64,000 nt of DNA from Escherichia coli (lineage in GTDB: Bacteria; Pseudomonadota; Gammaproteobacteria; Enterobacterales; Enterobacteriaceae): assembly GCF_051903065.1 (NCBI RefSeq), contig NZ_CP178438.1. One strand, 5' to 3'. A program made the position numbers and the translations under genes. Under the pieces are notes generated by a model. It was not told where the DNA came from. It did not search any database and was given only the letters and a program-made list of their open reading frames with translations. Position 1 is the stretch's first letter. Each line of letters begins with the position of its first letter. Below are positions 14,301-16,448 of this stretch, one piece after another.

Positions 14301-16448
14301 TTACGCCAGTGCCGCTTCGCGCAGGCGAGTTTTCAACTTGTTGTACTCGTCAATCACGTACTGCTCGGCGGCGCGCTGATCGGCGATCGGCTCGACGCGC
14401 ACGGCGCAGTATTTGTATTCCGGCGTTTTCGTAATCGGGCTTAAGTTTTCGGTAACCAGCTCGTTACAGGCACCAATCCACCACTGGTAGGTCATGTAAA
14501 TCGCCCCTTTGTTCGGACGATCGCTGACCTGCGCACGGGTGATAATTTTGCCTTTACGCGAGTGCACCCAAACCAATGCCTCATCTTCAATACCCAGACG
14601 TTTGGCGTCTTCGGTATTGATTTGTGCGTAGCCAGGTTCATCCGCCAGCGCCGCCAGTGCCGCACAGTTACCGGTCATCGAACGGCAAGAGTAGTGACCA
14701 ACTTCACGCACCGTTGACAGTACCATCGGGTACTCGTCGGTGAGTTTGTCGATTGGCGCTACCCAGTCGCAGGTGAAGAACTGCGCCAGACCGTTCGGGG
14801 TATCAAACTTCTCTTTAAACAGATAAGAAGTCCCCTGATCGGCATCTGAAGTATCGCGGCAAGGCCACTGAATGAAGCCCAGTTCGCCCATTTTCTCGTA
14901 AGTCGCACCGTAGAAATCCGGGCACAGATGACGCAACTCATCCCAGATCTCCTGGGTGTTGTTGTAGTGCATCGGATAACCCATACGGGTGGCGATTTCA
15001 CTGATGATTTGCCAGTCCGTTTTCAGATCCCATTTCGGTTCAACTGCTTTGAAGAAACGCTGGAAGCCACGGTCAGCCGCAGTAAACACGCCTTCATGCT
15101 CGCCCCACGACGTTGACGGTAAAATAACATCCGCCGCCGACGCGGTTTTGGTCATAAAGATGTCCTGAACGATAACCAGTTCCAGATCTTCAAAGGCTTT
15201 ACGTACTGCCGACAGCTCCGCGTCAGTTTGCAGCGGATCTTCGCCCATAATGTACGCGGCACGCACTTCGCCATGCGCTGCGCGGTGCGGCAGCTCGCTG
15301 ATGCGATAGCCGGTATGCGCTGGCAGGCTTTCCACACCCCAGGCTTTGGCGAATTTCTCGCGGTTAGCCGGATCTTTCACGTACTGGTATCCCGGATACG
15401 TATCCGGCAGCGCGCCCATATCGCAGGCACCCTGCACGTTGTTCTGACCACGAACCGGGTTTACACCCGCATGCGGCTTACCGAGGTTACCGGTCAGCAT
15501 CGCGAGGCTGGTCAGAGAACGCACGGTTTCCACGCCCTGGTAGAACTGGGTTACACCCATGCCCCACAGGATGGCGGCGCTTTTCGCCTGGGCATACATC
15601 CGTGCCGCCTGACGAATCTCACTGGCGCTGACGCCGGTGATATCTTCAACCGACTCCGGCGTGTAGCCTTCAACGATTTTACGATACTCTTCAAAGCCTT
15701 CTGTACGTGAAGCGACGAACGCTTTGTCGTACAGATTTTCTTCAATAATGACATGGCCCATCGCATTCAACAGCGCGATGTTCGAGCCGTTTTTCAGTGC
15801 AATGTGCATGTCAGCAATGCGCGCGGTTTCAATTTTGCGCGGATCGCAGACGATAATTTTCGCCCCGTTACGTTTAGCGTTAATTACGTGATTCGCCACG
15901 ATTGGGTGGGAATCCGCCGGGTTGTACCCGAAAACGAACACTAAATCGGTATTATCAATTTCGTTAATAGCATTGCTCATTGCGCCATTACCGACCGATT
16001 GGTGCAGACCTGCAACCGATGGGCCGTGTCAGACACGAGCGCAGCAGTCAACGTTATTGGTACCAATAACGGCGCGCGCAAATTTTTGCATTACATAGTT
16101 GGTTTCGTTACCCGTACCACGCGAGGAGCCGGTCGTCTGGATGGCATCCGGACCGTACTTCTCTTTGATGGCGCTCAGGCGCTCGGCAACGTAATTCAGT
16201 GCCTCATCCCAGGAAACAGGTTCGAGTTTGCCGCCACGCTGGCGACGGATCATGGGGGTTTTCAGGCGCGGGGTCAGGATCTGGGTATCGTTAATGAAAT
16301 CCCAGCCATAATAACCCTTCAGACACAGGGTACCCTGGTTGGTTTTCCCCTGCGCTGCCTCCGCCCGGACGATTTTGCCGTTATCGACGACCAGGTTGAT
16401 TTTGCAACCTGATGCGCAATAGGGGCAAACCGTGACGACTTTTTTCAT
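14301..16448 (-). CDS. fdhF: formate dehydrogenase H, selenocysteine-containing (in-frame UGA at 16029-16031 decoded as Sec)
   Basis: ORF track gives two in-frame pieces (139 aa MKKVVTVCPYCASGCKINLVV... ending CCARV, then 559 aa) separated by one TGA; SECIS hairpin immediately 3' of the UGA; total 715 aa. Confidence 0.93.
15985..16028 (-). other. SECIS element directing selenocysteine insertion at the fdhF UGA
   Basis: mRNA after UGA reads CACGGCCCAUCGGUUGCAGGUCUGCACCAAUCGGUCGGUAAUGGCG, which matches the classic fdhF SECIS as I remember it. Confidence 0.85.

What the first reader, a model, noticed from the sequence alone, without database searches (positions are those of the whole stretch)
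15985..16031. fdhF UGA-selenocysteine recoding with intact SECIS, miscalled as two ORFs by six-frame translation
The ORF track splits fdhF into 16029-16448 and 14301-15980, separated by a single in-frame TGA. The 40-odd nucleotides 3' of the TGA are the fdhF SECIS hairpin as I remember it. This is a single 715 aa selenoprotein, not a pseudogene, and it needs selA/selB/selC/selD encoded elsewhere.
Basis: partly seen in the sequence, partly recalled or inferred. Interest (0 to 1): 0.45.

Follow-up and report, generated by a model that had tools for sequence, protein, structure and literature searches.

The report
E. coli fdhF selenocysteine UGA and SECIS
This is the ordinary, fully intact Escherichia coli formate dehydrogenase H gene (fdhF), whose internal UGA at codon 140 is read as selenocysteine with the help of the well-known SECIS hairpin just after it; it is a textbook case and nothing here differs from it.

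Summary
The observation and its interpretation are both correct, and both are already known. On the minus strand, 14301-16448 is one 716-codon frame with a single internal TGA, codon 140, at 16031-16029. A mechanical ORF finder splits this frame into 16029-16448 and 14301-15980. The translated protein is 100% identical to solved E. coli FDH-H (PDB 1AA6/1FDO/2IV2/7Z0T), which has a non-standard residue at position 140. Against K-12 fdhF there are 10 nucleotide differences. All are synonymous, nine lie downstream of the TGA, and none is in the SECIS. Rfam SECIS_2 (RF01988) matches 15982-16036(-) at 87.1 bits (gathering 70, E 1.8e-17). U17, G23, U24 and the 11-nt spacing are all present. The 55-nt element is identical in 5411 of 5420 E. 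coli records. In 56 other-species loci with TGA at this codon, all carry the CAGGTCTG apical motif, and none of 60 Cys-codon homologues does. Third-codon-position variability drops only in the TGA genes. The window equals E. coli 23CRST027 (NZ_AP045789.1) at 63,999/64,000 bases, and that genome has intact selA, selB, selC and selD. One caveat: folding energy alone does not discriminate (z = -0.94). Novelty: none. Interest: low.

The parts
14301..16448 (-). fdhF coding sequence (formate dehydrogenase H, 715 aa, Sec at residue 140)
   Evidence: It is one frame of 716 codons with an internal stop only at codon 140. It is 100% identical to PDB 1AA6/1FDO/2IV2/7Z0T. It is annotated fdhF at these coordinates in NZ_AP045789.1. 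Residues C8, C11, C15, C42, H141 and R333 are present.
16029..16031 (-). UGA codon 140, recoded as selenocysteine
   Evidence: locate it. The position corresponds to 'X' at residue 140 of the solved FDH-H chain. Homologues in other species have TGA, TGC or TGT at this codon.
15982..16036 (-).
   Evidence: RF01988 scores 87.1 bits against a gathering score of 70, E 1.8e-17, covering model positions 1-55 of 55. The element is identical to K-12 and to 5411 of 5420 E. coli records.
16001..16017 (-). Minimal 17-nt SelB-binding hairpin (nt 15-31 counted from the U of UGA), GGUUGCAGGUCUGCACC, with bulged U17 at 16015 and loop G23 and U24 at 16009 and 16008
   Evidence: The determinants are as described in PMC8659212. 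The U17-bulge register is supported by two compensatory pairs in Pasteurellaceae sequences. The CAGGTCTG core is present in 57 of 57 TGA loci and 0 of 60 Cys-codon loci.
16500..16515 (-). Sigma-54-type -24/-12 promoter element TGGCAT-N5-ATGCA upstream of fdhF (inferred)
   Evidence: The sequence was found 51 nt before the ATG. The 197-nt upstream region is 196/197 identical to K-12. Its function as the FhlA/sigma-54-dependent promoter rests on established knowledge of K-12 fdhF and was not tested here.

Best explanation
Window 14301-16448 (minus strand) is the intact E. coli fdhF gene. It encodes formate dehydrogenase H, the molybdenum/selenium catalytic subunit of the formate hydrogenlyase complex. 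When a ribosome reaches UGA140, the mRNA immediately downstream folds into the SECIS hairpin. The apical 17-nt hairpin starts 11 nt after the UGA and carries bulged U17 and loop bases G23 and U24. It is bound by the C-terminal domain of the specialised elongation factor SelB. SelB delivers Sec-tRNA(Sec), the selC product that SelA charges with selenium using selenophosphate from SelD, to the A site. The UGA is therefore decoded as selenocysteine instead of being read by RF2. Translation then continues through the SECIS, which also encodes residues 141-153 or so, to give the 715-aa enzyme in which Sec140 ligates molybdenum. What is shown here: the sequence, the structure-model match, identity to the experimentally studied element and protein, comparative constraint, and presence of the sel genes in the matching genome. 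What is inferred from established knowledge: SelB binding and actual Sec insertion in this strain.
For: The gene is a single frame with one internal TGA at codon 140. The protein is 100% identical to the solved FDH-H chain (1AA6, 1FDI, 1FDO, 2IV2, 7Z0T), with X at position 140. fdhF differs from K-12 at 10 nt, all synonymous, at codons 50, 329, 338, 371, 406, 467, 468, 602, 677 and 683, which indicates purifying selection on both sides of the UGA. Rfam SECIS_2 scores 87.1 bits, above the gathering score of 70. U17, G23, U24 and the 11-nt spacing are present, matching the determinants summarised in PMC8659212. PMC4513850 places UGA140 followed by a SECIS encoding aa 141-153 and reports 30-40% recoding in vivo. 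The 55-nt element is identical in 5411 of 5420 E. coli records. A cross-species scan used a pattern that contains only the first five bases after the codon (CAYGG) and none of the apical hairpin. In it, 57 of 57 TGA loci carry CAGGTCTG at +19..+26 and 0 of 60 TGC/TGT loci do. Third-codon-position entropy in codons +1..+15 is 0.51 bits in TGA genes against 1.20 and 1.24 in their flanks. In Cys genes the same region gives 1.46 against 1.27 and 1.33. For the U17-bulge structure, 91.9% of cells pair, against 23-48% when the partners are slid, and two pairs show compensatory changes. The sel machinery is intact in NZ_AP045789.1, which equals the window at 63,999/64,000 bases: tRNA-Sec has anticodon TCA and is 95/95 identical to K-12, SelB is 614 aa, SelA is 463 aa and SelD is 347 aa, with no internal stops.
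Against: There is nothing substantive against it. Folding energy of the 47 nt is not significantly better than shuffles (z = -0.94). Cys-codon homologues fold as stably, at a mean of -14.8 versus -13.9 kcal/mol, so thermodynamics gives no independent support. Covariation is modest: the 7 distinct sequences that carry the two compensatory pairs include the identified Pasteurellaceae loci, so they probably reflect only one or two evolutionary events. No expression, selenium-labelling or activity data for this strain can be obtained with these tools. The source genome of the window is inferred from near-identity, not given.
Confidence: 0.98

Rival explanations
1. fdhF is a pseudogene, inactivated by a nonsense (TGA) mutation at codon 140.
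For: A plain six-frame translation shows a premature stop and two ORFs.
Against: The same TGA within an identical 55-nt context occurs in 5411 of 5420 E. coli records and in K-12. All 10 differences from K-12 are synonymous, and nine lie downstream of the stop, so the downstream part is under purifying selection. The solved structure of the full-length protein has the non-standard residue at position 140. RefSeq annotates the CDS without a pseudogene flag.
Confidence: 0.005
2. There are two independent genes, a 139-aa product ending at the TGA and a 559-aa product initiated at ATG 15980 (Met157).
For: Both ORFs exist mechanically. Published work reports that only 30-40% of ribosomes recode UGA140 in vivo (PMC4513850), so a 139-aa termination product is probably made as a by-product.
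Against: The 16 codons between the TGA and Met157 are in frame and encode conserved residues, HGPSVAGLHQSVGNGA, shared with homologues in other species. The sequence before ATG157, GGTCGGTAATGGCGCA, has no clear Shine-Dalgarno match. The solved chain is continuous over residues 1-715. Homologues with Cys at this codon are single uninterrupted ORFs through this region.
Confidence: 0.01
3. The UGA is read through without selenocysteine, by near-cognate Trp-tRNA or by Cys mis-charged on tRNA(Sec), so the product is not a selenoprotein.
For: The reference list of PMC8659212 cites a report that part of the fdhF SECIS can promote low-level UGA read-through without selenium (Liu et al. 1999, not read here). 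UGA followed by C is a weak termination context (own knowledge).
Against: The complete Sec machinery is present and intact in the matching genome. The SelB-binding determinants are strictly conserved in all 57 TGA loci and absent from all Cys-codon loci, which only makes sense if SelB-dependent decoding is the selected function.
Confidence: 0.005

Closest known systems
E. coli K-12 MG1655 fdhF (b4079) UGA140 with the fdhF SECIS (Rfam RF01988, SECIS_2)
   Same: The protein sequence is identical, with 0 aa differences. The 69 nt around the UGA, including the whole SECIS, are identical. The neighbours are the same (yjcO downstream, mdtP upstream), and the upstream region is 196/197 identical.
   Different: The only differences are 10 synonymous substitutions in the 2148-nt gene and one substitution 76 nt upstream of the ATG. 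There is no functional difference.
Cys-codon FdhF-like paralogues and orthologues in Enterobacterales and other Proteobacteria (TGC/TGT at the equivalent codon)
   Same: They share the active-site motif CCARV-[U/C]-HGPSV...GNGAM and the same protein family, and they often co-occur with the Sec form in one genome, e.g. Citrobacter werkmanii L014 and L015.
   Different: They have no UGA. None of 60 has the CAGGTCTG apical motif, and their synonymous sites after the codon are unconstrained (1.46 bits against 0.51). They need no sel machinery.
Rfam SECIS_3 (RF01989)
   Same: It gives an overlapping sub-threshold match at 15976-16034(-) with a similar UGA-proximal hairpin layout.
   Different: It scores 35.8 bits, well below its gathering score of 63, and several pairs are non-canonical. 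The element is therefore not a member of that family.
Eukaryotic and archaeal SECIS elements (established knowledge)
   Same: They also direct recoding of UGA as selenocysteine through an mRNA structure and a dedicated elongation factor.
   Different: They lie in untranslated regions, far from the UGA. In eukaryotes they use a kink-turn motif read by SBP2/eEFSec. Here the element lies inside the ORF immediately 3' of the UGA and is bound directly by SelB.

Membership tests
Bacterial fdhF-type SECIS (Rfam RF01988 SECIS_2) | Covariance-model score at or above the curated gathering score | tested here: met
   It scores 87.1 bits against a gathering score of 70, covers the full model 1-55, and has E 1.8e-17 for the whole window.
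Bacterial fdhF-type SECIS (Rfam RF01988 SECIS_2) | In-frame UGA inside an ORF, at the position where homologues have Sec or Cys | tested here: met
   The UGA is codon 140 of a 716-codon frame. Of 120 homologous loci, 57 have TGA, 39 TGC and 24 TGT at this codon. The solved FDH-H chain has X at position 140.
Bacterial fdhF-type SECIS (Rfam RF01988 SECIS_2) | 17-nt apical hairpin at nt 15-31, i.e. 11 nt after the UGA, with bulged U17 and loop G23/U24 (determinants as summarised in PMC8659212) | tested here: met
   The bases G15 G16 U17 U18 ... G22 G23 U24 C25 ... A29 C30 C31 were read directly. The predicted MFE and Rfam structures place GGUC in the loop. The U17-bulge register is favoured by compensatory changes at 18-29 and 15-31 (one search compared).
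Bacterial fdhF-type SECIS (Rfam RF01988 SECIS_2) | Evolutionary constraint on the RNA beyond the protein code | tested here: met
   Third-position entropy is 0.51 bits in codons +1..+15 against about 1.2 bits in the flanks for TGA genes. There is no such dip in Cys-codon genes, which give 1.46.
Bacterial fdhF-type SECIS (Rfam RF01988 SECIS_2) | Binding by SelB and selenium-dependent read-through of the UGA | not testable with these tools
   This is inferred from sequence identity with the E. coli fdhF fragment (aa 130-179) used in recoding assays in PMC4513850.
Bacterial fdhF-type SECIS (Rfam RF01988 SECIS_2) | selA, selB, selC and selD present in the same genome | tested here: met
   They are not in the window. 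All four are intact in NZ_AP045789.1, which equals the window at 63,999/64,000 bases. Among complete E. coli genomes, selAB and selD are each present in 5425 of 5426 and selC in 5424. The source genome is inferred, not given.
Formate dehydrogenase H (FdhF; Mo-bis-PGD / DMSO-reductase superfamily) | Full-length similarity to characterised FDH-H, including the N-terminal 4Fe-4S cysteines and the active-site residues Sec140, His141 and Arg333 | tested here: met
   It is 100% identical over residues 1-715 to 1AA6_A, at 1669 bits. C8, C11, C15, C42, H141 and R333 are present.
Formate dehydrogenase H (FdhF; Mo-bis-PGD / DMSO-reductase superfamily) | Conserved E. coli genomic context (yjcO - fdhF - mdtP) | tested here: met
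   The order is the same in K-12, XH990 and 23CRST027.

The most novel reading that the evidence does not exclude
The most novel reading the evidence does not strictly exclude concerns a second protein product. Because recoding is only partly efficient, the 139-aa termination product, or a product initiated at Met157, might have a biological role of its own in this strain. Nothing in the sequence suggests this. The region is identical to K-12, and there is no ribosome-binding site before Met157.
Probability: 0.02. Interest if true: 0.25.

Novelty: already known. Interest (0 to 1): 0.05.

Why it matters
It matters only as an annotation sanity check. Naive six-frame or ORF-based pipelines will split or pseudogenise fdhF, and the same applies to fdnG and fdoG elsewhere in the genome, unless UGA-Sec recoding is modelled. 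Biologically, it confirms that this strain can make the selenium-dependent formate dehydrogenase H of the formate hydrogenlyase complex, as almost all E. coli can. There is no new biology. The comparative numbers obtained here, with the SECIS motif in 57 of 57 UGA genes and 0 of 60 Cys genes plus a synonymous-site dip, restate what is already established.

Tried and rejected
(1) I tried RNA folding energy as a test of the SECIS. The 47-nt MFE of -14.9 kcal/mol is not better than shuffles (z = -0.94), and Cys-codon homologues without a SECIS fold equally well. I rejected it as a discriminator and used the covariance model, the sequence determinants and comparative constraint instead.

(2) I tested Rfam's consensus register, in which U18 is bulged and U17 pairs with A29. 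It leaves 7 of the 32 distinct sequences (the group that includes the Pasteurellaceae loci) unpaired at that position. The U17-bulge register turns these into compensatory A-U pairs, so I preferred it.

(3) I looked for sel genes and tRNA-Sec inside the window. There are none, as expected from the K-12 map. I found them by walking the matching genome instead.

(4) I tried to read the primary paper on the minimal SECIS (Liu et al. 1998, PMC147357). It is not held, so I relied on the review PMC8659212 and on PMC4513850.

(5) I considered the pseudogene, two-gene and Sec-independent read-through explanations and rejected them; see the rival explanations.

(6) I did not run protein-database searches, structure prediction or metagenome scans. 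The 100% identity to a solved structure made them unnecessary.

Full report
**Observation**

On the minus strand the sequence reads ...TGC TGC GCT CGT GTC TGA CAC GGC CCA TCG GTT GCA GGT CTG CAC CAA TCG GTC GGT AAT GGC GCA ATG....

Translating 14301-16448(-) as one frame gives 716 codons, with stops only at codon 140 and at the end. The TGA occupies window 16031..16029.

One small correction: the two ORFs are separated by the TGA plus 16 in-frame sense codons (residues 141-156), because an ORF finder can only restart at Met157.

**Identity of the gene**

- The 715-aa product, with any residue placed at 140, is 100% identical over its full length to the PDB chain of E. coli formate dehydrogenase H (1AA6, 1FDI, 1FDO, 2IV2, 7Z0T). 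That chain has a non-standard residue 'X' at position 140.
- The 2148-nt gene matches 5419 of 5426 complete E. coli genomes, where it is annotated fdhF.
- Against K-12 MG1655 fdhF (b4079) there are 10 nucleotide differences. All are synonymous. One lies upstream of codon 140 and nine lie downstream. None falls in the 69 nt around the UGA.
- The four 4Fe-4S cysteines (C8, C11, C15, C42), His141 and Arg333 are present.
- The neighbours, yjcO and mdtP, are as in K-12.
- The 197-nt upstream region is 196/197 identical to K-12 and contains a sigma-54-type TGGCAT-N5-ATGCA element at 16500-16515. Its function is inferred from established knowledge of K-12 and was not tested here.

**The SECIS**

A scan of the whole window against Rfam at gathering thresholds gives one SECIS hit. 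It is SECIS_2 (RF01988) at 15982-16036(-), scoring 87.1 bits against a gathering score of 70, with E = 1.8e-17 and full model coverage. SECIS_3 gives only a sub-threshold overlapping match, 35.8 bits against 63.

Counting from the U of UGA, the element has the features that define the fdhF SECIS according to the review PMC8659212:

- G15-C31 forms the 17-nt apical hairpin GGUUGCAGGUCUGCACC at window 16017-16001.
- The hairpin starts 11 nt after the UGA.
- U17 is at 16015, G23 at 16009 and U24 at 16008.

PMC4513850 places UGA at codon 140 followed by a SECIS encoding residues 141-153. It reports 30-40% recoding efficiency in vivo with this very E. coli fragment.

The 55-nt element is identical in 5411 of 5420 E. 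coli records that carry it.

**A caveat on folding**

The predicted MFE structure is the expected hairpin with a GGUC loop. However, its energy (-14.9 kcal/mol) is not distinguishable from dinucleotide shuffles: z = -0.94, and 27 of 200 shuffles fold at least as well. Energy alone would therefore not have confirmed anything.

**Comparative test**

I scanned one genome per species with the pattern TGYTGYGCNCGNGTNTGHCAYGG. It encodes the flanking motif CCARV-[Sec/Cys]-HG and includes only the first five bases after the codon (CAYGG), none of the apical hairpin.

After requiring enough flank, dropping one non-homologous hit and adding the window, the groups were 57 TGA and 60 Cys-codon sequences:

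| Measure | TGA (Sec) genes, n = 57 | TGC/TGT (Cys) genes, n = 60 |
|---|---|---|
| CAGGTCTG at +19..+26 | 57 of 57 | 0 of 60 |
| Third-position entropy, codons +1..+15 | 0.51 bits | 1.46 bits |
| Third-position entropy, flanks | 1.20 and 1.24 bits | 1.27 and 1.33 bits |
| Mean MFE of the 47 nt | -13.9 kcal/mol | -14.8 kcal/mol |

The RNA-level constraint is therefore tied specifically to the UGA. Mean folding energies do not differ between the two groups, which again shows that the signal lies in sequence and shape, not in stability.

On an alignment of the 32 distinct TGA-type 55-mers, the structure with U17 bulged pairs 91.9% of cells, against 23-48% when the 3' partners are slid. It has two pairs with compensatory changes, G15-C31 to U-A and U18-A29 to A-U, in 7 distinct sequences that include the identified Pasteurellaceae loci. 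Rfam's own register, with U18 bulged, leaves those 7 unpaired at one position. The covariation is modest and probably reflects only one or two events, but it is consistent with the published structure.

**Selenocysteine machinery**

No sel gene or tRNA lies in the window, as expected from the K-12 map.

The window is identical to E. coli strain 23CRST027, NZ_AP045789.1 4862721-4926720, at 63,999 of 64,000 positions. That genome contains:

- tRNA-Sec (anticodon TCA, 95/95 identical to K-12 selC) at 4303239-4303333;
- selB (614 aa, 6 aa differences from K-12, no internal stop) at 4234592-4236436;
- selA (463 aa, no internal stop) at 4236433-4237824;
- selD (347 aa, 2 aa differences from K-12) at 2200399-2201442.

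None is flagged as a pseudogene.

Across complete E. coli genomes, selAB is present in 5425, selC in 5424 and selD in 5425 of 5426.

**Mechanism**

These steps come from established knowledge. The sequence prerequisites were verified here, but SelB binding and selenium insertion themselves could not be tested.

1. SelD makes selenophosphate.
2. SelA converts Ser-tRNA(Sec) to Sec-tRNA(Sec).
3. SelB-GTP binds Sec-tRNA(Sec) and, through its C-terminal domain, the apical SECIS hairpin (U17, G23, U24).
4. When the ribosome places UGA140 in the A site, the tethered complex decodes it as Sec, in competition with RF2.
5. The ribosome then melts and translates the SECIS as residues 141-153 or so.

Since recoding is incomplete (30-40%, PMC4513850), a 139-aa termination product is probably also made. 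The functional product is the 715-aa selenoenzyme.

**Rivals**

- A pseudogene is excluded by conservation of the TGA context across E. coli, by purely synonymous divergence downstream of it, and by the solved full-length protein.
- Two separate genes are excluded by the conserved in-frame linker, by the lack of a Shine-Dalgarno sequence before Met157, and by uninterrupted Cys-codon homologues.
- Sec-independent read-through cannot be the selected function, given the strict linkage of the SelB-binding motif to UGA.

**Verdict**

The finding is correct in observation and in interpretation. It is the textbook example of bacterial selenocysteine recoding and is identical to the K-12 reference element. 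Novelty: already known. Interest: low. Its only practical value is as a reminder that ORF-based annotation must model UGA-Sec.

Noticed in passing
window 23970-33111: A 9.2-kb sugar-utilisation cluster lies between yjcS and yjdP, where K-12 has the D-allose operon alsK-alsE-alsC-alsA-alsB-alsR plus rpiB. It encodes a response regulator, a carbohydrate kinase, a ketose-1,6-bisphosphate aldolase, a D-lyxose/D-mannose isomerase, a three-component ABC transporter and a hybrid sensor kinase. The alternative cluster is present in only 421 of 5426 complete E. coli genomes.
   Followed up: partly
window 45176-45659 (-); also 2838-2909, 13443-13513, 42550-42630 (+): Five tandem copies, roughly 100 nt apart, of the Rfam naRNA4 (REP-derived) element lie between yjdN and yjdM. 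Three single copies lie elsewhere, including one just downstream of yjcO, next to fdhF's neighbour.
   Followed up: no
window 51330-51495 (+): Rfam STnc630 sRNA matches at 181.8 bits downstream of proP, overlapping the small ORF pmrR (51399-51488 in window coordinates).
   Followed up: no
loci L041, L055, L061, L062, L088, L113, L123 (Edwardsiella, Hafnia, Morganella, Proteus and others): In these fdhF SECIS elements the 3' side of the apical stem reads UGCAGCG instead of UGCACCA. The G16-C30 pair of the E. coli register therefore cannot form, and U17 could pair with G30 instead of bulging. This may imply a slightly different SelB-SECIS geometry in those genera.
   Followed up: partly
loci L012-L131, e.g. 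L014/L015 (Citrobacter werkmanii) and L048-L050 (Pluralibacter gergoviae): Many Enterobacterales carry both a Sec (TGA) fdhF and one or more Cys-codon paralogues with the same CCARV-C-HGPSV motif. The Cys copies lack any SECIS-like conservation.
   Followed up: partly
window 26354; window 16524 (upstream of fdhF): There is a single-base difference between the window and NZ_AP045789.1 at 26354, inside the aldolase gene. There is also one C-to-A difference from K-12 76 nt upstream of the fdhF ATG, just 5' of the -24 element.
   Followed up: no
NZ_AP045789.1 4385394-4413309 (locus L008), outside the window: The genome that matches the window has a Tn7-like element (tnsABCDE) at the glmS attachment site. 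The element carries a class 2-type integron integrase and the resistance genes dfrA1, blaTEM-1, sul3, qacL, aadA1 and estX, together with IS26 copies.
   Followed up: no
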